A model generated the notes under the pieces. That model worked only from the letters and a program-made list of their open reading frames with translations. It was not told where the DNA came from and did not search any database. DNA of 64,000 nucleotides from Marsupella aquatica (lineage: Eukaryota > Plantae > Marchantiophyta): contig OZ316892.1 in the NCBI GenBank assembly GCA_973895155.1, positions 19,727,869 through 19,791,868 of the forward strand, in the 5' to 3' direction. This document shows positions 29,020-55,350 of the stretch, in pieces (the first letter of the stretch is position 1; every line of letters starts with the position of its first letter). A program made the translations under genes and the position numbers.

Positions 29020-29313
29020 TGTTAGGAATTGACTCGAGTTCCCGACTTAGTTTATTTTGGCCTTACTAGGGTTAGTTAACCCTAGATTACATTAGGATAA
29101 GATCCGCTTTGTTTAGGCCCACTCATCTTGGCCCCCTTGGGGGGTATAGGCTGGAGGGAGACCACTTTCTCCCTCATTCTTCACATGTACTCTCATTTGC
29201 TATTGAGCCTTCAGGAGTTTCTCCACTCGGGGTGTCTCGTCGGTGTAGCGTCTGATTGAGTGTCTCTCATGTTTCCGCATTGCTGTCTAGTCCGGAGCTG
29301 ACGGTTTCTTACA
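29020..29313 (+). repeat. 3' LTR
   Basis: Copy of 23008-23301, followed by TSD CTTGA. Confidence 0.95.
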
Positions 29314-30570: not shown

Positions 30571-30866
30571 AAGTGGCTTGGTAAAATTTCCAAATTAAAT
30601 AAATACATTATCCAACAACCTTAAATGAAGTTTCCAAAACTTGGAACTGGAATTTCTAGAACACTCTTTCAAGTTTCCTAAACACCAGTTGAAATTTCCA
30701 AATCCATGTAAAATACATTTTTGGCATACGAATTTGGTGGAGAATAGTCACATGAGTAATGTCACATTTCAATTCATTGTCACCCACTAACAGGAACCAT
30801 ACAGAAGTCCATAACAATTGTTTACTTATAATAGGCCTCCCCTCAATATTACAAGTCTCCAAATTT

Positions 30867-31893
30867 TTAAATAATGATCATTGAATGTGTGTTGCTACAA
30901 AACATATTTGAGTAAGTAAGTCTACTTCCTGACTTATCAAACTTTCTATCTCGGTTGCAAGCGTCTTTAGGATACAAGTTTCTAAACTTAGAAGTAAGGT
31001 CCCTAGTTTTTAGGACTTCCCAAACAAATTGCCGCTTATTTTGCAAATATGGGCCGGAATAACCATCTCCAAGCAGACCTTTAGCAATTGAATTGATGTC
31101 ACGGTCACTCATATCCTGCACCGGTGGCAAACTTTGCACGGTATGCTTCACTTCCCAGGAAATCTTGTCTGCCGAGTGATCAAGGACAGTGAAATTATTG
31201 ACGATGCCAGCAACGCGGTGCCCCCAGGCTTGAGTGAGTCCTGCAAAGATATCACAATGCCTCCTTTGGGCTTCACCCTTATTGTAGGCGGACCATTTTG
31301 GGTAGTTAACAGTGGCTTACATGAAAGTGGAAGCAATATCTCCATCAAAAAAGTGTCGCCTCCCATGTTGTGAACAAATGGAACTGGAAACAACGTGTTA
31401 ACATTTGGATTCGCGAAACACTTTAGAGGAGAGTCATCGATGAGAACAGTATTTGTCGGACCATATCTATTGCCAAAACAATCCCAAACAGTTTGGATTT
31501 CCTTGAGAAGTATGTTTGCCTTCCCATCCGTAATATCTGACCTCAAAAAGCCAATGTCAAACGTTTCTTCTTGGGTGAATACAAACTTGAACTGCTTTCG
31601 TTCAGCATCGTTGAAAACAAGATCCATCATTTCATTTGTTCTCGGCCTTCCCGCACAAGTCCAAATCGCAACATCGTAATACCTGAAAATCACTTGTAAA
31701 AATTTGTGAAGTCCTGGACGCTCCACATACATAAATGTGTTCCCGCCCCGTCTTCCCTAGTGAATGCCGCTCACAGATGTGAGCCTCCGAAATGGTCCGG
31801 AGATTTTACTCTTTACAAAATCCAAACAAACCTTATTAAGGTAAAAAAATCAAGAGCTTTCGCTTGATCTCTGAGTGGAGTTTGGGAACAAAC
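30867..31893 (-). pseudogene. NIF/FCP1-like HAD phosphatase domain (outer element cargo), frameshifted
   Basis: KRKLLIF(fs)YLNK...YVERPGLHKFL...YDVAIWT...KEIQTVW...NTVLIDDSPLKCFANP. Contains a stop and two frameshifts. Confidence 0.75.
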
Positions 31894-32005
31894 TCTGCAA
31901 ACATAAAAATATTGAATCCGAATGGTTAGTCATTGGAACAGTCTTGACCAAAGACCATTTGAAGTCAACTAAGTCCTTGAAATCAAATACCCCGTCTGTC
32001 ACCCT

Positions 32006-33613
32006 CTACACGCGTCTCGTGCAAAAATCACTGTATTGCGGAGGAAAGCTCAATCTATTCCTGAATAGACTTAAAACGATTTCTCTCCTCTCCAAATCTA
32101 TGTCCTCTCCTGTGAAATCAAAAGGAAGGTCCAAACTACGGTAGTTCGCAAACTTCATAACGAACACACCACAATTATAGTAATCAGTTTGTCTTGGGAT
32201 GTCCTTGGGACTATGTTTTGGCCATAGAGTAGCTAAGACTTGCTTGTGACTTCTGCTTTGAATTTCATCCTCGACATATCTGGCTAAGTTTTCAAGAACC
32301 TCTGGCCTATTGTTATGCAGAGAATCAAGATATTCTAAATGCTTGTGTTCCATGTCAATCACAACTAACGCCCAATGATCGCCACCTTTGTGAATGGGGA
32401 CGAATATTCGATGACAATCAATTAAGAAATATTTCAGTCGTGAAGTCCAAGCCTCCACGGATCGGTAAGAGTAGCCATTCAACGTCAGTGCAGTATAGAA
32501 CCAAGTGTCAAACACATGGCACTTTAGAAGCTCCCTGTCGGAATGTTTATTCCTCTCCACTATGAGACTTAAGTAGGCATTTAGAATATCAGAACTTATC
32601 CAATTTCTAGGACTCAGGCACCTCATCTGTCCACGAGTTATTAGGCACCCATTAGTCATGACTAGAACCGCATCCTGATCCAACAGATCACTGAGGCAAT
32701 TGTCAATCCTCGTTTTGTTATCCATTGGATCCGGAGACGGGAGAGGACATTTGTTTATGTTTAGAAATTTATGACTTGAGACAAGAGAGAGGGAATTGGC
32801 ACATGCCTCATTGGTTGCCTCTGCACGATTGACTCGCCTCTCTGACACCTCAGGAAGATTCGCTGTGAGAGAAAATGAGTTATCATTCTCTCCTGTTACT
32901 TCAGCGCTACGAGAGTCAACATTGTCATCGCATTGAAATTCAATCGGAGTGTGATCTTTTTCCACAATCCCAACCTCCTCCACAACAATCTCTTTTAAGG
33001 GTCCACAATCCACCACCCCCTTCTCGACATCCTCGAGTGTAGTTTTTGCCTCACAATCATCAAAAACTGGGCCACTTCGAAGAACTAAAGCATCAACCAG
33101 AAGAGATTGCTCAACACCTCTGTTGCACTCTAACCCTGGAGGGTCAAACGAATTTTGAGGATCTACACGATACGTGTGTAGGGAGACATCATCCACAACA
33201 TCTTCCAAAGTTTTGTTGAACGCAATCAACCCCGTGCCCGCCTGTAAGTTTTCAGAATTATCTGCCAAACCATAACCTCCTTCAGCCATTAGAAGAGGAA
33301 ATCCTTCACGACTTGCAATTGGAACGACTGATGGACCAATTCTCATCTCCCCAATGGAACTTAGAAACTTTTCCTCCGCTTTCACCCCGACGTAATGTAA
33401 AACTGTACCGGCAATCTGATATTGCTGGCCCTCTTTTGCTCCACTAGCATTGGAGTTCTGAGTCGAACTCCCTTCAAGGCCAGGAGGTTTCCACAATGAT
33501 TTGGCGAATTGTGCAACTGGAACTAACAATTTAAGATTCTCTGCATAAGCCGTGAGGTCACAGACATCCTCACGGTCAGAGCAGAATGAAAAACACTCAC
33601 GCTCAAGCATCAA
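32006..33613 (-). CDS. Ulp1/C48 SUMO-protease domain preceded by an acidic linker (outer element cargo)
   Basis: WISSDILNAYL, FDTWFY, FVPIHKGGDHWALVVID, YLDSL, PRQTDYYNCGVF. Catalytic His, Asp, Gln and Cys are present. Confidence 0.9.
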   Translation of the reverse strand: MMLERECFSFCSDREDVCDLTAYAENLKLLVPVAQFAKSLWKPPGLEGSSTQNSNASGAKEGQQYQIAGTVLHYVGVKAEEKFLSSIGEMRIGPSVVPIASREGFPLLMAEGGYGLADNSENLQAGTGLIAFNKTLEDVVDDVSLHTYRVDPQNSFDPPGLECNRGVEQSLLVDALVLRSGPVFDDCEAKTTLEDVEKGVVDCGPLKEIVVEEVGIVEKDHTPIEFQCDDNVDSRSAEVTGENDNSFSLTANLPEVSERRVNRAEATNEACANSLSLVSSHKFLNINKCPLPSPDPMDNKTRIDNCLSDLLDQDAVLVMTNGCLITRGQMRCLSPRNWISSDILNAYLSLIVERNKHSDRELLKCHVFDTWFYTALTLNGYSYRSVEAWTSRLKYFLIDCHRIFVPIHKGGDHWALVVIDMEHKHLEYLDSLHNNRPEVLENLARYVEDEIQSRSHKQVLATLWPKHSPKDIPRQTDYYNCGVFVMKFANYRSLDLPFDFTGEDIDLERREIVLSLFRNRLSFPPQYSDFCTRRV

Positions 33614-34300
33614 TGCATTCTTTGGTACCTGCCCTCCTATGAAAAAATCCAGGACAATTTCCTCCCTCGAAGAAAATGCATGAATAAAACTCTACAGGAT
33701 GCGACTGGGCTTAATATTCAATGTGAATGGCCGTCCAGTTGTCAATTTGAAAGGAACAAGGCCTTCAAGTCGTGAGATCAATGTGTCCCTTTTTTTCTCC
33801 TGCATATCTTCCTTCAAAATATCAGAATAATCCTCTCGACTTGGCTTGATTGTCTCCTCCAGGTCGGACTCCTCCAACACAAAGTGACCGGTAAAATCCT
33901 TGAAATGCTTTTCCCAATCAGGAACCCGATCTTGGGAGACGCCAAGGAAAAGAACCATGTCCGCATTGCCTCTCATGTGTTGCAAAGGAGCATTAACCAA
34001 ATAACTCATGAACGAACCATATTCAAGGTGCGCATTATAGTTCTCCGGGAGATCTCGAATAGCTTCAATTATTCTTGCAAGAATAATACCAGGACAAACA
34101 AAAAAAACAGCTGTTACCAGATCATTTGTTGGGATATTCACGACGATCTTCAAGAAGTTCAAGATTTCGGACTGCGTCCAAACCGGTTTTCCAGTATGGG
34201 TCAAATCAACAATCGCTAGAGATGCCAATATTGACTCGCAACTAGCCGAATCAAAAGGAGGATCAGCAGATGCGAGCAGATTTCCAGTATAGAATATTCA
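33560..34300 (-). pseudogene. Degenerate beta-class N6/N4 DNA methyltransferase-like domain (outer element cargo)
   Basis: Reading through in-frame stops at 34298 and 33692 gives IFYTGNLL...SLAIVDLTH...KPSRIL*SFIHAFSSREEIVLDFFIGG...ALMLERECFSF, which resembles KP..L...I..FS..GD.VLDPF.G.G....A..LGR. Confidence 0.55.
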
Positions 34301-35044
34301 GTAAGGATCCATCCTTGCGCGGAGATGGACGCCAAACCTCTTTTGATGAATATTTCTCAACCTATTTTTCAGTGGCTCCGGCATCTCTGCTTTTAATGAC
34401 ACCTTCACAAGGCTCTTGAAATATCCAGTGTCCACCATTGCACAACAACGATCCAATTCCTCATCTGTGAAATTATATTGCTGAACTACATCACCCCAAG
34501 TTGATCCTTGCGAGAAAACCCCTTCGTACTTCTCCCGATAAAATTGAAGTATTGCCCCCTTAAGTTTGTCAGTATACTTTGCTTGTCTTGCCAATTCTGA
34601 CATGGCGGGAAGATCAGTCAAAGCATGTTTCTTTTTCATCAAAAGCGCCTCCCCCAAATTCAGTTTGTGGAGGATTTCCAAGATGTTGGATTCTACGGCA
34701 CCCTCAAAAACCCGGAATGTTGTCCCTGTCAACTGTTTTGCTTCTTTCAATTTTCCAATCATTTGTCCGGTTGAATCCAAAAGATTACCCTTGAGCCAAT
34801 TATTGCAAACCTCTCTCCATAAAGAGTAGAGCTTCTCGGGAGCAAACAAAATCCAATTGTACTCGCTGATGCTATTCACCTTTAACGTAACTTTCGCAAG
34901 TGTTTCATACTCCTGGGAGGAAAGACCAAACAACTCAAAGTTAGTCAGCTCAAAGTTTTGAATCCCAAAATACTGGAAAGGCTCTACACGACTCTCGCGT
35001 AGAAAGGAGAGAAGGACAAAGTGTCTGAATTTTGTTCACAACTC

Positions 35045-35600
35045 TCATGGAGAACCAACCTGAAATTCTGGAGATTTCCGACCCGATGGAAGTGGACGAG
35101 CTGGTCGCCCCATATCATTGTATTGCATTCTTGCATGTTTCACTTGGTCAATAAATGGAGATGAAAACCGATGTGCCTCCGCCTGAAGGTGGTTCGCGTG
35201 TGAAATTTCCACAAGAACTTTCACCGGAGTTGACCCTTTGAGAATTTGCGCTCGACGATATTTGAGCAAATTGGCTGTTTGCATGAGAGATGGTTGGGTC
35301 TTTGAACTCCGGATAATTTTCTTGGCGGCCATTGTGGAATGTTGACCACTGATGGCAAAGAACTTGAATTCCGCAAGCTTCTTGGTGTCAATATCCTTTC
35401 CCGCAAGGTCAATTAAACTCGGTACTCCGTCGATCATCTTGTAAGGAACCAAATCTGCAGGTAAAGGTTCTTGCCCTGCATTTGTCATCATCAGTTGCGC
35501 AAGATGGTTGACATGCTCCTCATTGAGGAGTCTCTCATTCATCTTTGCAGGAGGGGGATGGATGTTTTCAACCGGGACAATAAAAAAATTTGGATATCCC
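35045..35600 (-). pseudogene. ParB/sulfiredoxin-like domain (outer element cargo)
   Basis: ERLLNEEHVNHLAQLM...PADLVP...FFAISGQHSTMAAKKI...YRRAQIL matches the ParB/Srx pattern (R...V..L..S...I.DG.HR..A). Confidence 0.6.
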
Positions 35601-38568
35601 GAAACAATACCAAGACTTATTCAACTCCAATGTTTTTTCTGCAGTCTCCAGACGAGCACGGTCGACAACTAGCTTCGCGGAACTAGGGTTCTCGTCAATA
35701 TCCACATCTTCCTTATTTTTCTTTGCTTTCTTGGGCTTGCGAACGACAGCTTGAGAGGTGATGACAACCTTCTTCTCAACGTTTGGGGCCTTCTTCTCCA
35801 CGGCTCTGACCATGGGAGTTTTCACAACAATTTCAGCCGACTCTGTGGTCATCCCTTTCGCTTAGGAGGCTTTGCCCTTGATTCCACAACTACTGATTCA
35901 ACATCAAATTTTGCTTTTTTCTTTCCCTTTGGTGAAGGATCTTTTACAACTCCCTTTCGCTTCAGCGTCCTGATCTCCGGTTCGACCTTTTCAACTTTCT
36001 TCTTGACCGACGCAGATTTCTGTCCAACCCAAGACTTTTGAGACGGTTTCTCCTCCTGAGGTTTTGCTGGTGAAGCGACTTTCTTTGCATTGCTTGATTT
36101 TTGTATTCTGTCCTCGATCCCTTGCACTTCCTCGACAACTTGAATTCTCTTTTGAGAAGATGTTGCCTTTTCTTGTTTATCAACCGGAGATACATTTTTT
36201 CCACCTTTCACTTGAGGCACGACTTCGCGCTGGTTAGAAACAAGAACTCTCTTTCGAGATGGTTTCTTGTCTTCTTTTTGTTCTTCCCGTTGAACCTTCT
36301 TGCGGCCTGTTTTTGCCGCAGGCGGCTCATCTGCTTGATCAACAACTTTCACTCTCTTCCGAGGTAGTTTAGCTTCTTCTTTTATTTTCTCAAAATCAAC
36401 CTTCTTCCGGCCTAGTTTCCCTGATGGTGATTTTTCGTCCATTGCTTTTTTCTTCCCACTGGGTGTGGATGACTCTGACACAACACCAGCTTTCCCCTTC
36501 CTGGGCGAAACTCCCTTTGAAGTCTTTGCGTATCGCTTCTCTGTTGGAGGCTTTGCTGGGGGGATGACCTCATTTTGTTGAATTTCCCCACTCTTGACAT
36601 CATCGTTAATTGGTTCAACTCCACCTTCTAAACTTGTTGACTCTGACTCATTCTCTGACCCCGCCCGATTCTGAAAAGTCTTCTTGCTCTCTTCTTGGAC
36701 ACTTCCCTCCTCTCCGTCATCCTCATTTTTGGACTCATAGACTGATATCGTTTCATGGGACTTGCTCTCTCCAGAGGCGGACGAGTCATCGTTGGAGGAG
36801 TCATCCTCGTCCTTTCCCTCCCCATCATCATTGTCAATCTCTTTTCCACCAACATCTTTCTTCTTTGGGCGTACCAAGTCTTGGATTATTGGATGCCCTC
36901 GAATCCATTCCTCCACCTTTGTCTCACTGAAGTGTTTCATGAACACAACATTTGGAGAAATAGTCATCTTTCTCCTCCAGTCATCGTCTGGGATCTTCAT
37001 CCGCATTATTTGATCCACCTCTCGTGTCCGAGAGATAAAATATTCCGACTGCTTCATGACATAGGAGACCCGTCCAAGCCCCATAATTATTTCATCAGCC
37101 GTAAAGACCCGATCAGGTGAGAGCCATCTATCCGCCAAAGGATCAAAGAAACCGCATGAGACAACATTTGTGTCCTGGTTGTAAGGTTCAAGACAATGTG
37201 CTGAGCAAAACCCATGAAGTGGAGCAACCATCTGCTTGAAATTCCAAGCACTCTCAGACTCCAATGTCAGCAAAAGAGATGGGTTGTCCTTTGGGGACGC
37301 AAATCTTGTACAGTCTGCAAGAGTGCCAAAACTCACAAAGTTTCTTCGTCCATTTTCTGTTTTAACTCCCCTCACAATCAAACGGTAGTTGCCTTTGACT
37401 GGTTGCAATTCAAAAGACCATGAATTCACAGTCGCCAAAATATTCTCAAGTTTTGCGACCGTTGGAGTTTCAATCCGAAGCCTGTCAAAACGGAAATAAA
37501 CAGAGCAAACTCCTAGAAGACAAGGAGAAATATGTCAAACATCTGCACGACACTCGCGTAGAAAATAAAGTGAGCTGACAAACTGTTGCTTCATTATAAA
37601 CAAAATGATGTGAAAACATCCTTTACAAAATGGCCTCTTTGGCGTGTAAATGGTCCGGCAAAAAATGACTATCAGAACTTTGGAGATAGTCTTATGAGCC
37701 ATTTGAGCTCATCATGATTCGGAGTCAAAACAATGTCTAGATTTAAGAAACAATCCAATCCTCTGGAAACATAAGAGTTCCCTAACTCAAAGTATGCGCA
37801 CACATGTGGCCATGAAGGCAACAATTTTTCTTTTCCAATTCAATCCATCGCACTTTGGTATCCAATTGTCTTTCCCTCTCTTGGCCATCAGCCAGCTCCT
37901 GTCGCAAGTCATGAACTTGACGATCTTGAAACTTCTCCATCTCAAGAGAAGCTTTCATGGACTTTGCCGCTACGTCGCAAGTAATCAAATGCTGGATCTG
38001 TGCCCATCGATACTTTGCAAACATCTGCTCCCGTTTGTATTCCATTGCTTCCTTTTCATCCTCCAACGCTTTTTGGAGAATGGAATTCTCCATCAAACTC
38101 ATATCAAATGCATAAATACTTTTTTGTAACAATCCCTCAATCTTCTCAAAATTGTCCTTGCGATGAGCGCCTTCCTCTAGAAAAGTTGAACGAACAAAGT
38201 TACATGAACAATGTTTTGATTCCATATGGTACATATGAACGAGGATTCTACACGACAGTCGCATAGAAAACATGAGTTTCTACACGACAGTCGCGTCGAA
38301 ATCCATTATCTCCAAGATTGGAGAATCGGTTCTACGCGAGACTCGCGTAGAACTAAACAGGAAATTCTAAATTTTGACATAACGGCTCTCAAATAGAGAC
38401 TATGGGTCGATGAAAGAGACCCATTCTACACGACTCTCGTGTAGAGTAGACTCAAGTTTACCACAATCCATTGAAAATAGAGAAATTTAGGTCAGAATTA
38501 CCTTTGAGCTTCCTCAATGCAGCGAGAGCAAGTAATCCGGCGTCATTTTCTGCCAAAGAAGTCGTCAT
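35568..38568 (-). pseudogene. N-terminal exons of the outer cargo gene (coiled coil, globular region, long K/E/D low-complexity linker)
   Basis: Putative ATG at 38568. The GT-AG intron from ~38501 to ~38178 joins in frame to the coiled-coil ORF 37782-38273. An acceptor near 37481 leads into the 529-aa ORF. Frameshift near 35850. Confidence 0.5.
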
Positions 38569-39390
38569 TCCCTTCGCACGTGCGAACTCCTCCATGATAA
38601 TGTCAAGGACCGACTAGTTGAGCGAAAACAAATAGAAAACACAAATGATCCAAGGTCCGAGGTCCTTTTATACTCCAAGACGAGCATGAAAGAGCGTATC
38701 GTCCGAGGGGAGCGTGAAAGAGCATATCGTCCGAAGCGAGCGTGAAATGGCGTGAAACAATCTGAGGGCCAAGCGTGAGAGAGAGAGAGCGTGAGAGAAA
38801 GAGAGAGCAAGAGAGAAAGAGAGAGAGCAAGAGAGAAAGAGAGAGCAAGAGAGAAAGAGAGAGAGAGCGTGATTGAGAGAGTTAGACAATGAGAGTGACA
38901 GCGAGCTGGTCGGAAAGCAACATATATCGGCCCCTTCCGCGTGGAATACTGTCAAACAATGATTGCGGTTGCTACCCGGCCGCCAAACCTGATACTCGGG
39001 ACGTGTCACTAACATGGCGAACCACCACCCACCGCCAAACCAATCTGCATTTATGGAAATGACTGCTCACCACACACCACGCCGCCACAAAAAAGTACTA
39101 CACGACAATCTGGTAGAGTTGAATGTCTGAAATTCTTGCACCCCCACTCACTATATAACATGACAGACCACTTTGTGCAAGTCATTTTTTGAGACCTGAC
39201 TCATTTGTGCCTTCAGTCCGAGGTGGGACTGTCGTTAAAGCGTGCTCAGTTGTTTCAGGTACTGCATTGGTACAGTTTCTCGTACAGTTTTTCTCCTGTC
39301 ATTTTCAATTTTGTTTTAGTGATTGTGTCAGTATGTGAATGCATGTGCTTGAGTCTTTCCCATTGGGATGTGGTTTAACTGTATATTTAG

Positions 39391-40095
39391 TAGTAATCTC
39401 TATTGAATTTTGGACTTTTGATTTGCTACACGAGTCTAGTGTTGTTCCCCTGGTCTATCTAAATACAACATTCAATACAAAGTTCCTCAGATAACAAGAA
39501 TACTCATTTCAGAATATCCATCTCTCTATAGAAGTTTTAAGAGCCTACGAGTGTGTATTCAGTAGTAATCTCTATTGAATTTTGGACTTTTGATTGTCTA
39601 CACGAGCCTCGTGTTGTTCCCTTCGTCTATGCAAATACAACGTTCAATAGGAAGTTCCTATAAGAAGAATACTCATTTCAAAATATTCATCTCTATATAG
39701 AAGGTTTAAGAGCCTACTAGTTTGGATTCAGTCGTAAACTGTATTGAATATAGGACTTTGGATTGTCTACACGAGCCTCGTGTACGTTGTTCCCCTCGTC
39801 TATCCAAATACAACGTTCAATAGAAAGTTCCTCTAAGAAGAATACTCATTTCAAAATATGCATATCTGTATAGAAGGTTTAAGAGCCTACTAGTGTGGAT
39901 TCAGTCGTAATCTCTATTGAATATTGGAGTTTTGGTTGTCTACACAAGTCTCATGTTGTTCCCCTCGTCTAAGATACAATAGAATTTTCTATTTAATGAA
40001 AGAACCTTCAACTTTGTCGATGATTGTCTCCATTGCTTGTTCTGTGATATTTGCTTAGATTAGAGTTAGAGATTTTCACATGAGCCTCGTGTAGG
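39391..40095. repeat. ~172-bp tandem repeat (about 3.5 copies), each unit carrying the outer-element palindrome
   Basis: Units start at ~39391, 39564, 39733 and 39905 (TAGTAATCTCTATTGAATTTTGGACTTTTG...CTACACGAGCCTCGTGT). Confidence 0.85.
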
Positions 40096-40143
40096 CTGTT
40101 TTAAAAGATGTTTTTGTTGCAAATATTTTTCCTCAGATCCAAA

Positions 40144-41160
40144 ATGGCTTCAAGAACGCAGCTTCTACCTGGAGAAGTCGTTCACCTGCTTATCAATGAA
40201 CAACCAGTTGCTGGTGGAAAGGTTTTTTGTGTTCTACCTTCCGACACCTGCCACTCTGTGTTGCTTGGAGCAAAACGGATAAGTGTGGCGGTGGACAATG
40301 CTTTCTTTCACCTTGAACAGCTGCCGTATCCACATGCTGGAGCTGATCTAGTAGGAGAGTCGGTGAACTCCATTGTTTTGTGGGATCGGCAAGATGTCCG
40401 CCATGCAAATGACATGAATCTTGGAGGTCAAATAGAGTCAGCTTATGTCATTGATGACCCAGTTGACAATATTCAAGGTAATTCTGAATCAGCCATCGGA
40501 CTGGAGGGGACATAGGTTTTTGCGGAGGATTTGAAAGATCGTAGCACATGGTTCAAGAAGTTTGCCCTTCTCTATGCGGACGACGGAGAAACCTTGCTCG
40601 CAAGAGGTTGCATCATAAACCCACATCCTCTCGCGTCCATTAACAACGAGCGAGTTGGGGAAGATCATGTTGGTGTGAATATTTTGAGTCTAGCTATTGA
40701 AGCTGGCTTGGGAAAAGTTCTGTTCCCTCAATTTGTTGACAGATCACCATGCACAGTTTGATGGCCAATCAACAAAACTAGGATTGAGCCTAGAATGGAA
40801 TGTCTGAGTGATCTTTTAGATTGGAATGATGGTAACGATGAGGGAGTTAGAATTCTCTCATATATCAAGCCAAAAAGGGGCTATAACAATCAACGAAGAA
40901 ATCCTCAATCTTGATTCAAACAAGAAGGAGAGAAAACAACTCGAGAAAAGACGCAATCAAAAGATGTCTCGAGTGTCCATAGATACTCTTTATCGGGTTG
41001 ATTGTTGCTCACAGAGTTGTTGTCGACGACAACTCCGTGAGACCGTCACTGACATTAGGGCCCGCATTAGGGAAGAGTACTATGGTCTATCTCATGTTGA
41101 GCAACATACTTACATGCTCAATCATCTTCACTGTCGTGACGATGAAACCATCGCCTCAGG
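40144..41160 (+). pseudogene. 5' part of the outer transposase (two Tnp1/DUF8039-like repeats, then a Cys cluster)
   Basis: MASRTQLLPGEVVHLLINEQPVAGGKV...LPYP...IVLWD, a second similar repeat, then DCCSQSCC...EEYYGLSHVEQHTYML. In-frame stops at 40513 and 40759, plus a frameshift. Cut at the TSD. Confidence 0.65.
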
Positions 41161-45498: not shown

Positions 45499-46184
45499 AA
45501 TGAAATATGTTTATCATGAGATTCGAGTACGAGAAGTAAACGTTCCATTCTCATTATAGAGTCGTTATAGATTGGACGCACTCCATCAATGACGTTTTGT
45601 CGTCTTACCAACGGCAGGATTCGGGTTCATAGTTACTAGCACCTGGCGCTACCTCTATGTGTAAAACACCCTTGGATGAGGACTACGAATGCCAATAATA
45701 ATAGCGTCTGGCGCTACCTCTGGGTGCAAACATTCTTGGGTGAGGAGTACGAAGGCAATAAATAATAGCGCCTGGCGCTACCTATTTCAATGGACTTGAA
45801 AACATTCAATGGAAGGATAAGTACGACAACGCAATACAGTACGAGTCATTAAGTTGGCACGCTTTAAGATCTCCACTGGATCTTCGCGAATCCGATCCGT
45901 CCGGGTCCAAATGTGCCAGAGAGGAAGCGTCCACGAAAGTTATATCAGAGGGTCCTCTTCGAAGTGGGCAGCCAGGACCAAGTGCAAACTCTCCTTATAT
46001 CTAGTCGTTCTCCTCCGATGTCCTCATTGTCAAGCCATTCTTTACTGAGTCGCAGTTGTGGCTCATCTTTCGGGCGCGTGGTTCCCGTTCTCGCATTCGG
46101 GCCCAGTTGTTCTTTTTGGCTTTCGTGCGCGTTCTTGTTCTCCTTCTCGTCCTCGTTTCTCATTCTCGTCCTAGTTCACTTTCA

Positions 46185-49100
46185 ATGGCACCTCCACAGG
46201 GAAAGGCAAAGGAGGAGGCACTTGTCCCGAGTGACACCGACCGGGAGACCCCCGCATCAAATAGCTTACCGCCTCGGGACGAGAGGATGACGGTTCCAAT
46301 CTCGAAGAAGGGGAAACTCATCTCAAAGACGAAGAATGCCCCAACTATGGGACGCAGCAAAGGATCCAGTCGGCCAAATGCGAGCGGCCCAACTTCTGTT
46401 CCCGCTAGGGATATCGCCCATGCTTCAGTCGGCCGTCCAAGAGCCGACACTATCTGCACGGGAGTCTCCGTATCTTCTTCATCCACTGAGAGTGATCGTT
46501 CTTCGAGCGGGGACTCATCACCGAGCAGGCAAGGATTTGCGTGGTATGGATCGAGCGACTCGAATGACGACTCTGATGCGTACAAGCCAAGTTGGTGGGA
46601 AGACTGATTTCCCGGTGTCAGAGCGTCTCGTTTGAGTGCTGGAGAGACTTGGAGGATCCATCGAGGTTGATAGGATCTAATTCCACTCGTTTTTTTCCGT
46701 TACAAAACACATACCGTTCCTTCCTCGTATGTCGGATTTCTAGTGTATTGTAACATTTTGTATATGAACGGCACAGCCGTTCATTTTTACCCCGGTGTCA
46801 ATGCTTTTGAATTCAGAAGACCAAGCTTTAATTTTGGGTTCTACTCCCGTGTTTGCATTGTATTTCTGAATGCGAAACTGATCTATTTCTTTGAAATGGC
46901 CATAAACACTCGTTTGCTGTCAATGTTTTTACTAGCGTTTGGCGCTATTATGACAAACAAAGTGTCCATAACACTGTCGTGACATTTCTTATCTCTAAAG
47001 TGTTTTTGATAGCGTTGGGCGCTACTAATGAAAGGAATCACAAGTCAGACCCGTTTGGAGTTATTTTTACTTTTATTTCAACAAAGTCTGTTCAATTGAT
47101 GTGCATTTTAATAGCGCCAGGCGCTATTGTAATTCATTGGAATATTCGTTGAATGAATGGGTTCATGTGGTCATGTTTGTTGTCATTGGACTCCTATTTC
47201 ATCATTTATTTGGATACTAGCGCCAAGCGCTACTAAAGTTGGCTTGTTGACTCCTGCACAAAATTGGAAAATTTATAGACACTTGTGTTGATAGTACTGT
47301 CCGAAGCTACATTAAGACGGTTTTTCAGATACATTTGAAAGTATGTTGTATAATAGCGCCTGGCGCTATCCACAACTATCGACATTGATGTGGTTCCAAC
47401 GGTCACTTTCCAACGGTAATATTATAGTAGATTGAGGTTCACGGAACCCTTTTTGCTTTTGTCTGGGATGAAAGTCCAATCGGAGAATGCCATCTGTACT
47501 TGGGATTGTTGTAATCGAATGGCTGGTTCCAATGTATCGGTGTCTTAATACGAGGTGGAGATCGCTCGTTTGGGATAATTTAGTCCGTCTACGCGCTCAG
47601 ACCTTGGACTATATGAGTTTGTCAAGTGCATATGTGCGTCCTTTATTGGTCCCGTACATTTTGAGACGTGATCGTGACAAGAACTGCACGGCGCGTCCGG
47701 CAGTGCCTTTGGTCGAGTCGCTCTCCATGGCAACTTTTGGCTGGGTGATACGAGAATGGGGGAGGCTGATGGTGGTCATTTTGAGTCCTCTCAGTCTTCG
47801 TTCGCTGGTTCAGTATACACCCGTCGTGTCACTCGATCGACTGCATCCCTGTCGACTTCCGAAGCTGAATCTGCACAGCCCTTCCCGAGGTCGAGGAGAG
47901 GGAGAATGGACCCTAAGGACGTCTCCATGGGTGAAGTCAGTGACATAGGCTTATCGATAGACGAGGTAATATCAAAGCACGCATTGTCGTTCGGGAAGGA
48001 TTTTTGAGGATTCGATAAGGAGCCACCTCGAATTCCTCTTTGTAGATTGCTCCCCATGGAGGTTGTTCGAACCTTACAGAAAGAAAGTGCATCGATCGAG
48101 AAGTTGAAAGAATCATTCCGTGTCACCGGGTACAACTCGCGCATTGGGATGCCTTTCTACGTTCAGCCTGCGAATGCCGATGGGGTTTCTCAGATATGCA
48201 CCAGCAAGATCCGGGACTCTTGGGATCCAATTTGGGTCGTAGAAAATGACAAGTTTGAGGAAGAGTGTGATGCGGACCCAACATTCCATATTCTAAAAGA
48301 TAAAATGTTTTGTGTGTTTGACAGAAATCATCGATTGTACTCATGGTCAATCCTCACGAGGGAGAATCCGAACAACTTGAAGTATCATCCTCGTGTGATT
48401 TGCGTCATTTTCAATGGTGACAGAGGTTCGCTAGTTGAGCTCGAGGCGGCAATGCACACCATGAACCAATAAGTTCTATTTGTTAACTGTTGTTACCCCT
48501 GTCATTCATTTTGGACCAAACATGCTTTGCGAAAGTGTTCATTCCCCAATTTTTGCTAGCGCCGAGTGCTACTAATTCCTTTTCATTGCATCCAGGCTTG
48601 GACAAGCAGTCGTCGAGCCTTCCTGGATTCTTGACGCGGACAGAATTTCCCGAATTTTGTCGCGTGATCTTGATCACTATAAGCCACTCATCGACAGCGT
48701 GAACATGGCAAAGTTTGAGGCGATCCGAAAGAAGACGAGAAAGGGGTCTTGGTTTACACATAAAATGCCACAGGATGCTCTCATCTACATTCTGTGTGTG
48801 GACAAAATCAAGTCTTACTCAAATCAATTTAAGTCTGATATGGCTTTAGCCAAAGCTCAAGGGGCTTCTTGGTCAGAAAAGGAGACCACAAAGAGGCATG
48901 AGGCAATGATGAAGGAGGCGACCAAAGATTGGTCGATCAAAGTGACGAAGATCACCCCTTTACTTCATCCGGATTTTGGAGATTATTTGGGAACCTATGC
49001 TGAGATGTATCCCGTAACTGAGAAGAACAAACAGGAGAAGAAGCCAGACACAGTTGTATGCACAATGGATCGAGCCAGGTTGTTTACTGCTGTTTCATAC

Positions 49101-51497
49101 CTGGATCCAAAATTGAGGTGCACCCTTCTAGTAGCCCACTGCACTCCCGAGATTTGGAAACAGTTTTTCCATCCTGCAAGTGTCAACGACGAGCCTGTGA
49201 AGCAGTGGTGCCATACATGGCATACTTGGAATTCTGTGGAGGGAATTGCAACTGGAATGCTTCACACTTCTTTCAAACAGATTTCTGACCGGATGCCGGC
49301 TGACCGTCTCACAAAGTCTGGGTGTGAGTCAATGGAGGCCATGCTTAAGATCATTCTAGATGAATTCAGAAACTTTGGGGATCTTGTCAAGGCAAAATTC
49401 TTCAACAACTTGTGGCCTTCCAAATATGCGGACAAGGAAGATTACACAGAGCGGAACCGGAAGAGAGCCAAACGATATCTATACCGGTTTTACATGTGGA
49501 TGGAGCTTAGATCTCCTGACACTCTGTGGGCATACCCGGCTGCATTTCAGAAATGGGTGTCTATCGAAGAGGGAGACGCTCTTGCCGACCTGTATTCGAT
49601 GTACCCAGCGGAGGGAAAGTTTCCACCACGTTCATTGTCGGAGTGGGAGAGACTTTGTTGTCCGTGGTACCTCGACACAGACAAATGGGATTTACCGTTT
49701 GACGAAGCTGAGAAGGATGCCTTCATGAAGTTGCAGAAGTCCCAGATCCCTGCCAACTATGTGTCTGCAATGAAGCAAGGTCTCCAGTCTGATGTTGACG
49801 AATCTGCATCTGAGTTACAGAAGAATTGTGAGTCTCTTGTCATGCACGTTGACCGAAGCCGTAAGCCAAGAGCAAAGGCGAAGAATGAGTCGGCTGCACC
49901 AAGTGACTCCACAAGGTCCTTCAAGAAAAGTGAGTAGTCTAAGCGCTTTTTGGTTACTTGTTGGCGTTGCTTATGCAGGAGTTTCATTTGGAAATTCCTT
50001 TGATTAATAGCGCCTGGCGCTAGTCTGAAAGGTTGGACTCATTCAAGTTTCTGTGCCTAACAGGAGGTCCCGGCTGCCGAAGGGAAGAATGATGCAACTC
50101 CTCAGGCATCGGAGGCAAACACTGGAGCTCAAGAAACCCCGGATCAAGGGACCCCGGATGGTGCTGGCAAATCCATTGTCCCTCTTGACGCAACTAGCAC
50201 GAAGAAAAATAAAAAGAGAGGCGCCGGTGAGGATAGAGCAGCATCATCTACTCGAGACGTTATTTCCTGTGGACTCCAGAGAGATGTCGGGAATTTTAAG
50301 CGAAGGTGTTCTAGACACTGTTTTGTGGAGTCCAATTTAAACGAATTTTACGATTCGGTATTTAACAAGGGGATGAAGCCCATGTGGGTTACTAAAGTTG
50401 AGGCCTGGGGAAAGGAATTGGTAAAGTCAGGAGACAGAGAGAAGGGAGTAATGCATGGCGGAAAAGAGAGGGGCTTTGGTGTGGATGCTGGTTTCATCTA
50501 CATTCCCACTGGATTAAAACCAACACTTCTTGATCGGAAGATTCCCAAGTGGAACCTTCAGGATTACACTATTCCCAGCTCTTTCTTCCGAGCCATGGAG
50601 CCGTTCCTTGCAGACGATGGCCTACTTGCAATTTTACACAGAGGAGACTATGATCAGGTATCTGAAGTGATTGCGGCTTGCCAGGATTCTAAGTGTTTCC
50701 AGTGTATTTCAACCCACCATGTGGTCATGACTACACCAATGTATAGGCCCCGATCTGATACTCAGGTAACAATTCCTCTTGCACATACTAGCGCCCGGCG
50801 CTACTATCAGCATTCGCAATATCTACAATTCACTTATCTTTCGTAAGGATGAATGGTTGACTAGCGCCAAGCGCTAATATATGTGTATGTTTTCGTATAC
50901 TGCCTTCATTGGGAAACTGTGTTGCAGATATTCACACTTACTCTTAATATATTTTGCCGCATTTTGACAAAGGGAAGGGTCCCGAAAGACCCCAAGTTCC
51001 GGCCACTATCGAATGAAGAAGACCCTTCCGTCACTAACATTATTGGGTTTTCGTTGCCGCAACATGACCCGACTCCTGAGCTCCAATTTGCAGGAAATTC
51101 ACGATTGCCTGTGGGTTTCATGCAAACTATTTTGGAATTGGTGACTCTTCCTGGAGATATCGTTATGGACTGGACAGTAGGTTCCGGTAGTACGTTTGTG
51201 GCTGGAGATTATTCTGGTCGCTTTGTTGTTGGGCTGGAAAATCGGCCAGAGTTTGTTGATACTTCCGGTAAGGTCTTCCTTGATCTTTTACAGAACAAAG
51301 AAGTGGTTGCACCAACTCCTCCTAAGAAGATTCCTGGAAGTAAGAAGCAGGACAGGCTCCGTGCTATTCTAAATTTTGATTCGGAAGACGAGAATGAGGG
51401 TGGCAATGCTTCTCAGCAATCTAAAGATGATGAGGTGTCGAAGAATGTGGTGGACCTTGGATCTGGAGATGAGGACAGTGAAGAGTCAGAAGAGTAA
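46185..51497 (+). pseudogene. Spliced ParB/Srx-like plus beta-class N6/N4 DNA methyltransferase fusion gene (MULE cargo)
   Basis: ParB-like IPLCRLLPMEVVR...IEKLKESF...CVFDRNHRLYSW (48020-48470). MTase-like VDAGFIYIPTG...FLADDGLLAILH, then LPVGFMQTILELVTLPGDIVMDWTVGSGSTFVAGDYSGRFVVGLE. Introns at ~46670-47430, ~48470-48594, ~49931-50062 and 50766-50927. Stops at 46605 and 48005. Confidence 0.75.
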
Positions 51498-52271
51498 TTT
51501 TCTTTAGCTTTCTTTCTCTCATTGTATACTTTTTTCCAAAAAACTCCTCTACTCCCTTTTGTCTAGAAAATTCGCCCGATTTCCCGACTTCGACTAAAGA
51601 ACTCCAGTTCAAATTCTCAGGTCAGAGTAGAATCTTTGGAGGCGTTTTCAACTTTGAAGGAACGTCTCTAGGAACGTTGTACAGACCCCGGAGAAGCCAT
51701 TTGTTCTCCCCTCTTATGCTGAAAAGGCGGCACGACGGGCAGATTCAGTCAGGACGCTTACTTGGGAGAGTAAGGGTCTTAGACTCAGGAGAGGCTCAGA
51801 TAGAAAGTTTGTGCAGAATCACTTCATAGATGATATTGCAAAATCCAAGTATGTGGACGACGAAGCAGAGTCCACTGATAGATCAGAAAGTAGCGGTTCT
51901 GAATCGGGCTCAGAGTCGAGTGGTGGTTGTGGATCTGGTCTTTAGTTTTCCTTGTTTTATTTACCCGTTTATGGAGAACGACAACACTCAATAAGAACGT
52001 CGTGACGTGTCGGATTGGAGTAGCGCCCGACGCTATTACTGTAGCCGGTAGTTCAAAGAGGTTTTTATTTGGTTGTTTTCCTTATAGCGCCCGGCACTAG
52101 TATAAATGTACTCAATGGCCGCTTCACATCCAATATATGTGACAATATTTTCATACCCTTTGGTGTCTTTTTTGGGTGCACATTTGCTGGTATGAGTTTT
52201 GCTGTTTGCTGTTTACTGTTTGTTGTTTGTTGTTTGCTATTTGCTGTCACGGAGAGATCCCCCGCCTCAGG

Positions 52272-54576
52272 CATGATTGTATTCAAGGGAAGCAAGATCT
52301 GCAAGGAAGCTTTCTGGAATATTAATGGATTTTCTCTAGGAACATTTTACACAATGTATTCACGATACATGGAGGGGGCAAAAGTTGGTGTTCATGGGAA
52401 TGAAGGGACCATCAAGACCAAAGACTACGTTGTGTTGTTCACAGAATCAATTCAAAGTATCCTGCATAAATGTGCAGAACCAATGCCACATCTTCACAAA
52501 ATTGGTGTTTCAGGCAAGCAGGAAGTTGTTTTCAGGGTTCCAATAAGTTTCGGGAGAAAAGATGTTTTTGAAGAGGCTTGCAAGCTTAACAAAAACCTGG
52601 GTATTCACTCGACCTCTCTCCCAACCTTCTACAAGCTTTTGGATAAATATTTCCCCAATTTCCAATTCCAAGATCGGAGCAACTTTGCAAAATGCGATCT
52701 CTACACGACCATTAAAGAAACACTTCGGGGGGAGAAACGGGTGGATAAGATTTTAGAAATCAAGGCAAAGTGCGAACGGCATATGTTGGAACAACAATCA
52801 CGCAGGAGTATGTACTATGCAGCAAAAATTGCGGCGGACCAAGAGCCCAAAAAATATTTGTCTATGATTCACGATAAAATGGATCAGGCCAAGACCGGAA
52901 TCCCTAAAATGACTTCTACACTCAAGAGCCAAGGAGGCAAATCAATCCCGCTACCAATGACGCTGACGGGGATGTTAACGCATGGATGGGAGCCTGGAAT
53001 TTATGCACATTTTGCCCTTTCTGGTTTGTGGGCAAGCGATCCTGATTTTACAATCTCTTCGCTTGCAAAGTTATTTCGTGATCTCAAATCATTTGTGGGA
53101 GATAAGACCGACGATCTAGCTCTCAACACCTCTGACGTCATAGATCCAATCTTTGTATCCCTCTTGGATCGGCGTGCCTTTGAGGTAGGATACCTCGAAA
53201 CCAAAAAGATCTCTCTCGCTCACTTCGTAGGGCTTGGTGACTCACACGAGAGTCCCGTAGAGCCTTGAACATTGCTACCCTTCAAGGCGCTTCCTCGAAA
53301 CCTCCACCTTCAACTTGATAACTCGGGAAAGGATTACAAGAACCAGACATTTCTGGCTTTCTGTAGCGAGCTTGTTCTAAGAGGAGTGTTTGAGTCAGTA
53401 ACTCTTTCCTTTTTGATGGTGGGGCACACTCATGAGGATGTGGATGCCTTCTTCTCTAGAGTCGGGATAAGGATCTACAATTGAGAGCTTACCACATTTT
53501 TTGGTTTGATGGCGGAGGTTTGGGAGTGCGAGAAGAAACATCCGGTTCCAAGGTTCATCCGCGAAGTTGCATCTTACAAAGCTTATGTAGGACCATTTGT
53601 CAAAAGGATCCAGGGTCAATCAGCACCTGTTCAATTCTTGTTATCAATGAAGGAGAATGTCCCAGTCTACCAATATCGAGAGAAAATTGATACGCCTTGG
53701 CTACCGAAAAAGGGTCAAACAATTTGGTTGTTTGACTTAGAGAGAAACCAATACAAATTTCCAATTGGAAGTCCTTATTCCAAGCGGATGGAGTCTTCTC
53801 ACAAGCGAGCGAATCACATTTTGGAATACTTGATCCATTATATCTCATGGCTGAAGACTGCATGGAAGGATGTTACATCGGAGGGATATCGTCTCCGAAG
53901 TCCAGAGATTCAATACTGGGAAAACATTGTTTTTGTGTTTCAGGACACACTTTGCTCTCCTTCGCTAGCAGGGGTAGATTATCCATTACTTGATGGATTC
54001 TGGCCTCGAACGAACCATGGAACTGGGTATCGTCAGGATGGTCAGAACGTGGATACCAACCCAAGCGAAGACAATGGGGTGATGCATAATCTGGAAAGAG
54101 AGCTTCAAGAAGATGAAGAAGAGAGGCAAACAATCTTTGTCTGACACCCTTCTGAGCGTGAGAGGTCAAGATTTAGTCCTCTAGAAGATATTAAAAAGAA
54201 TACATTTGTTATTATTCGACCCACCGATGAATTTGAAACCAGAATTCTGCAACGATTTTGGCTTGCAAAAGCAATCGATTGTGTCGTAAGAGATCCCGAC
54301 GATTCGCATGTTGGAGAGTTCCAAGTTGAATGGTGGCGCCCTCTTAATCGCAAGAGTTTGGCAACCGAATCAGAAAGATATTGGGACTACTTTAATTCAA
54401 AGCAAACGTGGGAAAGGGATCCCAATTACCTCATTCCCCCAGTCACAAATGATTGGATCCTAGCAACTTCAACCATCACCGGATGGACATCAAAAGCAAA
54501 AGCAAAGGTAAAAGTTCCAGCAAGAGTTTTGGAAAGTGTGAAGGTTTACATTACAGAAACGATTGAAGAGAACTAA
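52272..54576 (+). pseudogene. 3' part of the outer transposase (Sola1/DUF7869-like RNase H-fold DDD core and C-terminal beta domain)
   Basis: ICKEAFWNING...HGNEG...FAKCD...MIHDKMDQAKTGIP...LHLQLDNSGKDYKN...SFLMVGHTHEDVDAFFS. In-frame stops at 53266 and 54142; frameshift near 53480. Confidence 0.75.
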
Positions 54577-54620
54577 AATCCTTTCTCGACGCAAGACTCG
54601 CGTGGAAGACACTTGGTGAT

Positions 54621-55350
54621 GCACGGCACGTCCTAATTATGTCGGGTTCAGGATTGTGGGAGAACAATAGGCGAGGTTTGAGCTGGTGTCACTTTCCGCA
54701 TGAGGCTCGTGTAGGCCGGATTACTTAGCTCGAGGATCATTTTTTGGAAAGTGAAAGGTGTGTACTTGTACTCAATGTCATATTCACTACAATGGCGCGC
54801 ATGTCAACCTTTGGCTCGTGTCCATTGTGGCCACAATGATGGTTTGGTGCCGGATCACAAGATTTGGGTGGGATGAGCTCAATTTCCTCCGTTATTGAGG
54901 TTAAATTGACAGGTGCTTTTTTATCATAATTGTGCTACACGAGGCTCGCGTAGGATGTCATAATCAACTTATGACTTGCAAAACCCGGATCTTATCACAG
55001 ACACCCATATCACACGGCATGTACTAATTGTCGGGTTGAGGACTGTGGGAGAACAATAGGCGAGGTTGGAGTTGGTTGGTTCCATTCACTTTCCGCACGA
55101 GGCTCGTGTAGGCCAAACTACTCAGCTCTAGGATCATTATGACCTTCGGAAAGTGAAAGGTGTGTACTTGTACTGAATGTCACTTTCACTGCAATGATGC
55201 GCATGTCGACCTATGGCTCGGGTCCATTGTGGCCACAATGATGGTGTGGTGTCGGGTCACGGGTTTTAGTATCATAATTGTACCATACGTGGCTGGCGTA
55301 GGATGTCATAATGAACTTATGACTTGCAAATCCCGGATCTCATCACACAT
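54621..55350. repeat. Two-copy tandem duplication (~390 and ~340 bp) near the presumed right end of the outer element
   Basis: CACGGCAYGT.CTAATT..GTCGGGTT...CCCGGATCT.ATCACA starts at ~54621 and ~55012. Each copy holds two palindromes. Confidence 0.8.

What the first reader, a model, noticed from the sequence alone, without database searches (positions are those of the whole stretch)
30600..55350. Two unrelated nested DNA transposons each pair a ParB-methyltransferase fusion gene with their own dispersed palindrome: candidate parS/ParB-like self-marking or anti-silencing system
Seen: a MULE and a Sola/DUF7869-like element share one layout, with a transposase divergent from a spliced ParB/Srx + beta-class amino-MTase gene and ~17-18 copies of an element-specific palindrome. 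I found the inner motif only inside the TSD-defined MULE (and its second copy) and the outer motif only outside it. Known: bacterial ParB is a CTP-dependent clamp that loads at palindromic parS sites and spreads. Arabidopsis VANDAL MULEs encode VANC, which binds motifs in the element's non-coding DNA to reverse silencing, and they also carry a Ulp1 gene. Prokaryote-derived 4mC methyltransferases exist in Marchantia and bdelloid rotifers. Inferred: a portable module (protein plus cognate site) loads on its own element, spreads, and deposits 4mC/6mA or shields DNA from host 5mC silencing, and it has moved between transposon superfamilies.
Basis: partly seen in the sequence, partly recalled or inferred. 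Interest (0 to 1): 0.92.

Follow-up and report, generated by a model that had tools for sequence, protein, structure and literature searches.

The report
Plant transposons with private docking palindromes
Two nested jumping genes, likely from a seedless plant, each carry 17-18 copies of their own mirror-symmetric DNA word and a gene for a predicted ParB-type protein fused to a methyltransferase-like domain that lacks the usual catalytic motif, so each protein likely docks on its own element at that word rather than methylating it.

Summary
An 11,102-bp element with a 9-bp target duplication and an empty site in public runs lies inside a DUF7869 transposase gene. It carries 18 copies of TAGCGCC-N-GGCGCTA, none in exons. 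The outer element carries 17 copies of CTACACGA-N3-TCGTGTAG, none inside the inner one. Both have a spliced ParB-like, helical, methyltransferase-like cargo gene. The outer protein's ParB and beta-class folds are confirmed on predicted models; the inner protein rests on motifs. The marking idea fails: no outer-family homologue keeps DPPY (0 of 24), the inner gene has none, and the outer ParB lacks the Box II arginine (0 of 59). Two related metagenome genes share a third palindrome in the same intron, and the inner element has a separate terminal word that suits its transposase. Best reading: a non-catalytic self-recognition protein docking on private sites, probably to keep the element expressed. 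Binding and function are untested, and both copies here are broken. ParB-methyltransferase cargo and the self-binding idea are already in print for algae, and this scan noted similar elements on other DNA. New here: land plants, defined sites, lost catalytic motif, site-protein co-variation.

The parts
41161..52262 (.). Inner element, likely a Mutator-type (MULE) DNA transposon, 11,102 bp, with short degenerate terminal inverted repeats
   Evidence: 9-bp duplication and end alignment; empty site in 3 of 4 runs
41152..41160 (+). Left target-site duplication CGCCTCAGG (right copy 52263-52271)
41200..41333 (.). Seven copies of a separate subterminal word CT(C/T)RTAYRAG at 20-22 bp spacing, one more at 52187; candidate transposase sites
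   Evidence: role inferred
41646..45463 (-). Inner transposase gene with one intron (about 43110-43449, 3 palindromes) and a C-terminal CxC..CxH SWIM-like finger
   Evidence: ORFs; intron; no library hit; MULE motifs recalled
45637..47368 (.). Eight inner palindromes in the region between the divergent genes (45637, 45702, 45766, 46933, 47010, 47112, 47218, 47354), flanking an unassigned Ser/Arg-rich ORF at 46174-46607
47756..48466 (+). Inner cargo exon 1 (start tentative): ParB-like domain, family motif VFDGNHRL; this copy has a stop at 48005, a Gly-to-Arg change in the motif and a broken splice donor
48467..48595 (+). Inner cargo intron 1 with palindrome 48557; same intron position in loci L001-L004
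   Evidence: loose contig ends at 48593-48594
48596..49929 (+). Inner cargo exon 2, unassigned middle region (homologous stretch in L003)
49930..50063 (+). Inner cargo intron 2 with palindrome 50008
   Evidence: loose end at 50063
50064..51497 (+). Inner cargo exons 3-4 (intron 50766-50927 with palindromes 50789, 50862): amino-methyltransferase-like domain, SAM loop DWTVGSG kept, no DPPY-type motif
   Evidence: Pfam N6_N4_Mtase E 5e-8 on the last exon
41528..41542 (.). Inner palindrome downstream of the transposase; two more (52021, 52085) downstream of the cargo gene
30600..55350 (.). Outer element (ends approximate, not found), DUF7869 transposase, Sola-like by recalled motifs
40144..54576 (+). 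Outer transposase gene, split by the inner element; in-frame stops in the 3' part
   Evidence: DUF7869 E 3.6e-37 on the X read-through; empty-site contigs
35060..38595 (-). 5' exons of the outer left-arm gene(s): intron 1 with 4 palindromes (38248-38426), intron 2 with 37543, Lys/Glu-rich region, then the ParB domain (about 35600-35062); frameshifted
34913..35059 (-). Intron after the outer ParB domain, with palindrome 34984
   Evidence: homologues resume at this acceptor
33452..34912 (-). Outer cargo helical middle region and beta-class methyltransferase fold; core strand LAIVD followed by LTH, not PPY; two in-frame stops
32006..33451 (-). Linker (coding palindrome 33163) and in-frame Ulp1/C48 protease domain; palindrome 32006 overlaps the ORF end
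   Evidence: Pfam E 4.7e-29
31148..31756 (-). NIF/FCP1-like phosphatase domain, last part of the outer left arm
   Evidence: Pfam E 9.2e-13
39098..40094 (.). Six outer palindromes between the divergent outer genes, four of them in a ~172-bp tandem unit
54696..55111 (.). Three outer palindromes downstream of the outer transposase, two from a ~400-bp duplication
63193..64000 (+). Left end of a second copy of the inner element, cut by the window end, with palindrome 63555

Best explanation
Each transposon carries 17-18 copies of its own palindrome almost only in non-coding DNA and encodes a predicted ParB-fold protein whose methyltransferase-like half lacks the catalytic DPPY motif, and that protein likely binds its own element's palindrome as a dimer without methylating DNA, probably to keep the element transcribed against host silencing. 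Shown: the sites, their exclusivity and placement, the nesting, the outer protein's two folds (on predicted models), the missing catalytic motif. Inferred: dimeric binding (from site symmetry and ParB ancestry), recognition through the helical middle region and/or the methyltransferase fold, and a VANC-like activating role (from sites clustered between the divergent genes and in introns). The inner family keeps the nucleotide-binding arginine and may still load and slide as a clamp; the outer family has lost it and more likely stays on its sites. The copies in this window are dead and show decay typical of CG/CHG methylation.
For: Sites: 18 and 17 copies against 0.00-0.07 expected, mutually exclusive across a nesting boundary; 0 of 18 and 1 of 17 in modelled exons that cover 65% and 76% of the elements (binomial P 6e-9 and 2e-9); inner copies have unrelated flanks (best pairwise identity 38-56%), so they were not made by recent tandem duplication. 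Co-variation: L002 and L003 (59% identical to each other, 41-42% to the window's inner ParB) share a different palindrome, CTCGGCGA-N3-TCGCCGAG type, in the same first intron: 15 of 19 letters, 1 of 5000 shuffles; that word is absent from the window at 3 mismatches. A separate terminal word is available for the transposase. Folds: outer ParB model pLDDT 90.4, Z 10.9, rmsd 2.0, 95 aligned to M. xanthus ParB; outer C-half pLDDT 84.8, Z 15.1, rmsd 3.9, 211 aligned to CcrM. Catalytic motif: D(F/L)xR-type in place of DPPY, 0 of 24 homologues with PP-aromatic; inner exon 3 is at least 3 substitutions from any such motif while the deepest listed contig over 50383-50725 differs by 2 letters. Precedent: VANC binds short motifs in introns and intergenic regions of its own VANDAL (PMC5735166, passages).
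Against: No binding, expression or methylation data. Co-variation rests on 2 informative loci of 4; L004 shows no palindrome in its three introns and L001 is cut 60 bp into the intron. No HTH match was found for the middle region. The inner protein was not folded, has no profile hit to solved ParB structures, and its motif IV position could not be aligned. CpG observed/expected is lower near the sites (0.67, 0.55) than in distant non-coding DNA (1.05, 0.83), so no local protection is seen. 20 of 25 C-to-T differences among the 40 listed variants are at CG or CHG against 32% background, so this copy was methylated. Outer exon models were partly drawn knowing the site positions. A transposase alone can activate its cognate elements (bioRxiv 2026.08.24.746577, section 7).
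Confidence: 0.52

Rival explanations
1. The cargo binds its palindromes but acts as a repressor or architectural factor (KorB/Noc-like): it limits the element's own expression or bridges the element for transposition, not anti-silencing.
For: The ParB model matches KorB and Noc about as well as chromosomal ParB (Z 8.7-10.0); KorB and VirB use this fold for gene regulation (PMC12704722, passages); no local CpG protection.
Against: Sites sit in introns and between the divergent genes as VANC sites do; the outer protein is fused to a SUMO-protease-type domain and lies next to a CTD-phosphatase-like domain, which points to chromatin or transcription machinery (inference).
Confidence: 0.18
2. The transposase, not the cargo, binds the dispersed palindromes.
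For: Each word is equally tied to its transposase in this window; AtMu1 transposase binds and activates cognate copies.
Against: AtMu1 binding was at the terminal repeats; the inner element has a distinct subterminal word; two transposases with no shared family hit go with palindromes of similar odd-spacer design in cargo introns. The transposases of L002 and L003 are not on their short contigs, so this rival is not excluded.
Confidence: 0.12
3. The cargo is an active methyltransferase that loads at the palindromes and marks its element with 4mC or 6mA (first reader; also proposed for the Ectocarpus gene).
For: Beta-class fold with an Asp kept at the strand end (24 of 25 rows; one Glu) and a partly kept SAM loop; the inner SAM loop keeps GSG and matches PvuII and M1.HpyAVI best.
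Against: No PP-aromatic after the Asp in any outer row; none in the inner gene; the window's DPPF lies before the core strand and is not conserved.
Confidence: 0.1
4. The words are sites for a host transcription factor, or RNA hairpins that help splicing, and the cargo is a bystander.
For: Seven of 18 inner copies are intronic; stems of 7-8 bp could form in RNA (not folded here).
Against: Three related or co-resident elements use three different words; neither word occurs in the 38 kb of flanking DNA; many copies lie outside introns.
Confidence: 0.08

Closest known systems
ParB-like plus N4/N6 methyltransferase accessory gene of Sola1-1_Ec32, Ectocarpus (PMC12477816; passages)
   Same: [quoted passage not shown]
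   Different: No target site named ('palindrom' 0 hits in the main text); the methyltransferase was predicted active. Here: land plants, defined sites, catalytic motif absent. Sequence relationship not tested; supplements not read.
PAG3 of red-algal Plavaka, Mutator and Zisupton elements (bioRxiv 10.1101/2025.02.11.637652; section 8 and passages)
   Same: ParB-like N-terminus in a transposon accessory gene, inverted repeats proposed as its sites, gene found in several transposon superfamilies.
   Different: PAG3 is fused to a 2OG oxygenase and its repeats are tandem arrays beside the gene; here a methyltransferase fold and single sites spread over the element.
VANDAL/VANC anti-silencing system of Arabidopsis (PMC5735166; passages)
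   Same: Mutator-type element, accessory protein, family-specific motifs in introns, intergenic and terminal non-coding DNA, partly built by tandem duplication.
   Different: VANC motifs are 8-9 bp and not palindromic; no VANC domain hit here; VANC function is shown, this one is not.
Phage ParB-N6N4 methyltransferase fusions (PMC12704722 section 7; PMC4738411 passages)
   Same: Same domain order; a phage protein annotated ParB/Sulfiredoxin is rank 3 in the viral structure search (E 4e-5, rmsd 25). Likely source of the cargo (inference).
   Different: The plant genes are spliced, lack DPPY and carry extra eukaryotic domains; no close prokaryotic relative found.
ParB-parS, Noc-NBS, KorB-OB (PMC12704722 passages)
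   Same: N-terminal fold; 15-21 bp palindromic sites.
   Different: No ParA partner; HTH not demonstrated; Box II arginine absent in the outer family.
Active eukaryotic 4mC enzymes: Marchantia DN4MT1 (bioRxiv 2021.02.12.428880, passages) and rotifer N4CMT (structure hit)
   Same: Beta-class fold of prokaryotic origin.
   Different: DN4MT1 has TSPPY and no ParB mention in the paper; the cargo has no such motif.

Membership tests
Beta-class amino (N6A/N4C) DNA methyltransferases | Circularly permuted fold, catalytic strand before SAM loop | tested here: met
   Outer model: Z 15.1 to CcrM, top 11 rows all beta-class; profile hit to M.RsrI E 1e-6. Inner: C-terminal part only, Pfam E 5e-8.
Beta-class amino (N6A/N4C) DNA methyltransferases | Catalytic motif IV [DNS]PP[YFW] | tested here: not met
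   0 of 24 outer homologues with letters there (26 rows, one the window's, one gapped); inner exon 3 at least 3 substitutions away.
Beta-class amino (N6A/N4C) DNA methyltransferases | SAM-binding motif I (DxFxGxG) | tested here: inconclusive
   Outer family DFFSGG, inner DWTVGSG: partly kept.
Beta-class amino (N6A/N4C) DNA methyltransferases | Methyl transfer to DNA | not testable with these tools
   Needs an assay.
ParB-CTPase clamp proteins | ParB/Srx fold (outer cargo) | tested here: met
   Z 10.9, rmsd 2.0, 95 aligned; Foldseek top rows all ParB/Noc/Srx, best E 1.2e-3.
ParB-CTPase clamp proteins | ParB/Srx fold (inner cargo) | tested here: inconclusive
   Not folded; motif DGNHR, collinear with the outer profile at P 0.029; weak DUF1015 and DndB hits in 1 of 10 members each; no PDB profile hit.
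ParB-CTPase clamp proteins | Box II GxxR arginine (inner family) | tested here: met
   Arg in 10 of 10, GNHR in 9 of 10.
ParB-CTPase clamp proteins | Box II GxxR arginine (outer family) | tested here: not met
   Arg in 0 of 59; GQHS in 49 of 59.
ParB-CTPase clamp proteins | Central HTH that reads the palindrome | tested here: inconclusive
   Middle region is all-helical with an HTH-like pattern by eye, but it was not folded alone and no HTH family matched.
ParB-CTPase clamp proteins | CTP binding, loading at the site, spreading | not testable with these tools
   Nucleotide choice is not predictable from sequence (PMC12704722).
VANDAL/VANC | Accessory protein homologous to VANC | tested here: not met
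   No Pfam family other than N6_N4_Mtase, C48 and NIF on the cargo ORFs; folds are ParB and methyltransferase.
VANDAL/VANC | Family-specific motifs in non-coding DNA of the element | tested here: met
VANDAL/VANC | Sequence-specific loss of 5mC and activation in trans | not testable with these tools
   CpG content near sites shows no protection, a weak proxy.
Mutator (MULE) transposons, inner element | 9-bp target duplication, short or degenerate terminal repeats | tested here: met
Mutator (MULE) transposons, inner element | MULE-family transposase domain | tested here: inconclusive
   No hit in Pfam, PHROGs, NCBIfam or PDB; DDE and SWIM-like motifs recognised from memory only.
Sola transposons, outer element | Sola-type transposase | tested here: inconclusive
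   DUF7869 E 3.6e-37; the link from DUF7869 to Sola is recalled, not from a call.
Sola transposons, outer element | Terminal inverted repeats and 4-bp target duplication | tested here: inconclusive
   None convincing in the ranges searched.

The most novel reading that the evidence does not exclude
Seedless land plants host a widespread class of transposon self-recognition systems built from phage ParB-methyltransferases: the enzyme has been turned into a non-catalytic reader that docks on a family-private palindrome, in some families slides along the element as a nucleotide-gated clamp, and switches off host silencing, with site and protein diverging together so that nested elements do not cross-talk.
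Probability: 0.3. Interest if true: 0.9.

Novelty: new variant of a known kind. Interest (0 to 1): 0.68.

Why it matters
VANDAL is described as the only transposon known to bind and modify its own sequence. ParB-type cargo genes in algal transposons were proposed to do the same, but without defined sites. This locus supplies two exact, mutually exclusive candidate sites with their candidate proteins, and a third from relatives, so a cognate versus non-cognate binding test is now straightforward. It also predicts that the methyltransferase half is a pseudo-enzyme, against the published guess. If the inner family slides on DNA, it would be a ParB-type clamp at work on eukaryotic chromatin, and orthogonal protein-site pairs of 15-21 bp could serve as tools to target or protect transgenes.

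Tried and rejected
No whole genome is held, so no genome-wide family survey. Word-based protein searches with the outer read-through and inner exon 2 found nothing; the full HMMER search did (133 hits). Scans for related loci were empty in viral contigs, prokaryote genomes and the first metagenome scan; only the inner-family alignment gave 4 loci, and no outer-family locus was obtained. The 135-row alignment A1 was misaligned and dropped. The DPPF in the outer protein was first taken as motif IV and rejected: it lies before the core strand and is not conserved. A free local alignment of the L002 and L003 introns was only marginal (49 of 2000 shuffles); the test with the word fixed from L002 alone gave 1 of 5000. 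Searches for the outer ends failed. No RNA holder was listed, which says nothing about expression. Atlas rows for inner exon 3 were all under 0.9, leads only. No HTH structure appeared in the whole-model search, which barely tests that region. No complex prediction was run. Literature searches for a land-plant description listed none; subscription papers, including Iyer 2011 cited by PMC12477816, and all supplements were not seen.
Full report
Setting. The window is eukaryotic, repeat-rich DNA with a copia element, F-box and oxidase genes. Named homologues of the outer cargo come from the liverworts Riccia sorocarpa and Calypogeia fissa and the fern Adiantum nelumboides: 9 of the 20 proteins looked up carry such names, the other 11 are unnamed assemblies. 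A seedless land plant is inferred; the organism was not determined and no genome is held.

Nesting. The inner element spans 41161-52262 between two copies of CGCCTCAGG. Contigs from 3 of 4 public runs, both studies, join 41151 to 52263 with a 9-letter overlap, so the uninterrupted outer transposase exists. Summed contig depth is roughly 2.5- to 6-fold higher over the inner element (my reading of table 2; not a copy number), and a second left end starts at 63193. The inner ends align as a short degenerate inverted repeat, and a separate word, CT(C/T)RTAYRAG, occurs 7 times within 175 bp of the left end and once near the right end. The inner transposase hits no library; MULE is inferred from the 9-bp duplication and recalled motifs. 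The outer transposase is DUF7869 (E 3.6e-37); Sola is a recalled label, and its ends were not found.

Palindromes. TAGCGCCNGGCGCTA occurs 18 times in the inner element and CTACACGANNNTCGTGTAG 17 times in the outer one, with none crossing over and none in 38 kb of flanking DNA; expectation is 0.00-0.07 per region. Inner copies: 8 between the divergent genes, 7 in introns, 3 downstream of genes, 0 of 18 in exons. Outer copies: 1 of 17 is clearly coding (33163) and 32006 overlaps an ORF end; the outer exon models were drawn partly knowing the sites, so that P value is optimistic. Inner flanks are unrelated (38-56%), whereas 6 of 17 outer copies are tandem duplicates. All 16 of 16 inner mismatches are C-to-T or G-to-A, and at 52096 other copies restore the perfect word.

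Cargo proteins. The outer gene reads ParB domain, intron, helical region, methyltransferase fold, linker, Ulp1 protease in one frame, then a NIF phosphatase domain. HMMER found 133 relatives. The ParB model (pLDDT 90.4) aligns to M. xanthus ParB at Z 10.9, rmsd 2.0 over 95 residues, then Noc, PadC, KorB. The C-half model (pLDDT 84.8) aligns to CcrM at Z 15.1, rmsd 3.9 over 211 residues. The inner gene has four exons; its ParB-like exon has 9 homologues with invariant NHRL and its last exon hits N6_N4_Mtase at E 5e-8. It was not folded. The two cargos show no significant similarity (BLASTP E 0.21; outer HMMs miss the inner gene; profile P 0.029 and 0.25), so ancient divergence or separate capture fit equally, and transfer between these two superfamilies is not shown.

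Catalysis. In the outer model the first core strand ends at Asp237, the place of the DPPY aspartate (inferred from the fold). Of 26 aligned rows, one is gapped, one is the window's (DLTH) and 24 homologues read DFSR, DFAR, DLAR and similar; none has PP-aromatic anywhere in the region. The inner exon 3 needs at least 3 substitutions for any such motif, and the deepest listed contig over 50383-50725 differs by 2 letters; divergent inner-family members were not available for this exon. Both are therefore likely pseudo-enzymes, more surely the outer. Box II of ParB keeps Arg in 10 of 10 inner rows and 0 of 59 outer rows; this arginine is needed for nucleotide binding in tested ParB folds (PMC12704722, passages).

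Co-variation. The inner alignment fetched 4 metagenome loci, all with the first intron at the same position as the window. None of the 4 holds either window word. L002 carries two copies of CTCGGCTGGGGTCGCCGAG-like palindromes in that intron, within a 48-bp duplicated unit; L003, 59% identical in protein, matches it at 15 of 19 letters in its 105-bp intron (1 of 5000 shuffles), with no other alignable intron sequence. L001 is cut early in the intron and L004 shows no palindrome. So 2 of 4 loci support a third site tied to a protein subfamily; their transposases are not on the contigs.

State of these copies. Both are broken by stops, a frameshift and a lost splice donor. Among the 40 best-supported differences listed (of 1164), 25 are C-to-T in the window copy and 20 of these lie at CG or CHG, against 32% of cytosines in the region. 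CpG content is higher in the two elements (0.68-0.73 coding) than in the first 19 kb (0.54), but lower beside the sites than away from them; this neither shows nor excludes protection.

Mechanism. Most likely the cargo dimer binds its family's palindrome and works without methyl transfer, as an activator or anti-silencer in the manner of VANC, whose motifs lie in introns, intergenic and terminal DNA (PMC5735166, passages): 0.52. A repressing or architectural role of the same complex gets 0.18, transposase binding 0.12 (bioRxiv 2026.08.24.746577, abstract and section 7), active methylation 0.10, host factor or RNA hairpin 0.08.

What is known. PMC12477816 (passages) reports a ParB plus N4/N6 methyltransferase gene opposite a Sola1 transposase in Ectocarpus, cites similar algal proteins and proposes self-binding and marking. 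The Bostrychia preprint (section 8 and passages) reports ParB-oxygenase PAG3 with adjacent inverted-repeat arrays and movement among superfamilies. PMC4738411 (passages) and PMC12704722 (abstract, passages, section 7) describe phage ParB-methyltransferase fusions. The Marchantia 4mC preprint (passages) and the Starship preprint (passages) were also consulted. Searches listed no land-plant description; supplements and subscription papers were not seen. Earlier notes of this scan describe similar elements in other eukaryotes and in phages; they led me to the two algal papers and are not counted as support.

Verdict. A real and clean feature, a new variant of a recently proposed kind. Interest 0.68.

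Noticed in passing
window 35063-35620 (-): ESM Atlas neighbours of the outer ParB domain include a fungal cluster with DUF3723 on 31% of members (score 0.93). DUF3723 is conserved cargo of fungal Starship transposons (no ParB mention there), so it may be a ParB-fold cargo too.
   Followed up: partly
window 31148-33691 (-); P0124, P0147: The outer cargo is followed by Ulp1 protease and NIF phosphatase domains; two Adiantum relatives also carry a NIF domain.
   Followed up: partly
window 30565-30702: TTTCCAAA occurs four times at 22-64 bp spacing and may be a subterminal array marking the outer element's left end.
   Followed up: partly
window 29873-30006: A perfect 44-bp inverted repeat with a 33-nt loop ends just before TGGTATCAGAGC, which resembles an LTR primer-binding site (recalled); the outer element may sit inside another retroelement.
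   Followed up: no
window 23008-29313: Copia element with identical 294-bp LTRs and open gag and pol frames, a recent insertion.
   Followed up: no
window 57147-60041: Tandem array of ~705-bp units with an internal repeated CAAACCACT word and low CpG content.
   Followed up: no
window 46174-46607 (+): Ser/Arg-rich ORF between two palindrome clusters of the inner element; no Pfam hit; third gene or extra exon unknown.
   Followed up: partly
window 61390-61430: Short run of GGGTTTAG-type repeats resembling plant telomeric sequence (recalled).
   Followed up: no
L004 480-1620: A 36% relative of the inner ParB gene with extra AT-rich introns and no palindrome; may be a domesticated gene or a different host.
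   Followed up: no
window 7825-11146: Duplicated ~2.5-kb unit with SKP1-like fragments.
   Followed up: no
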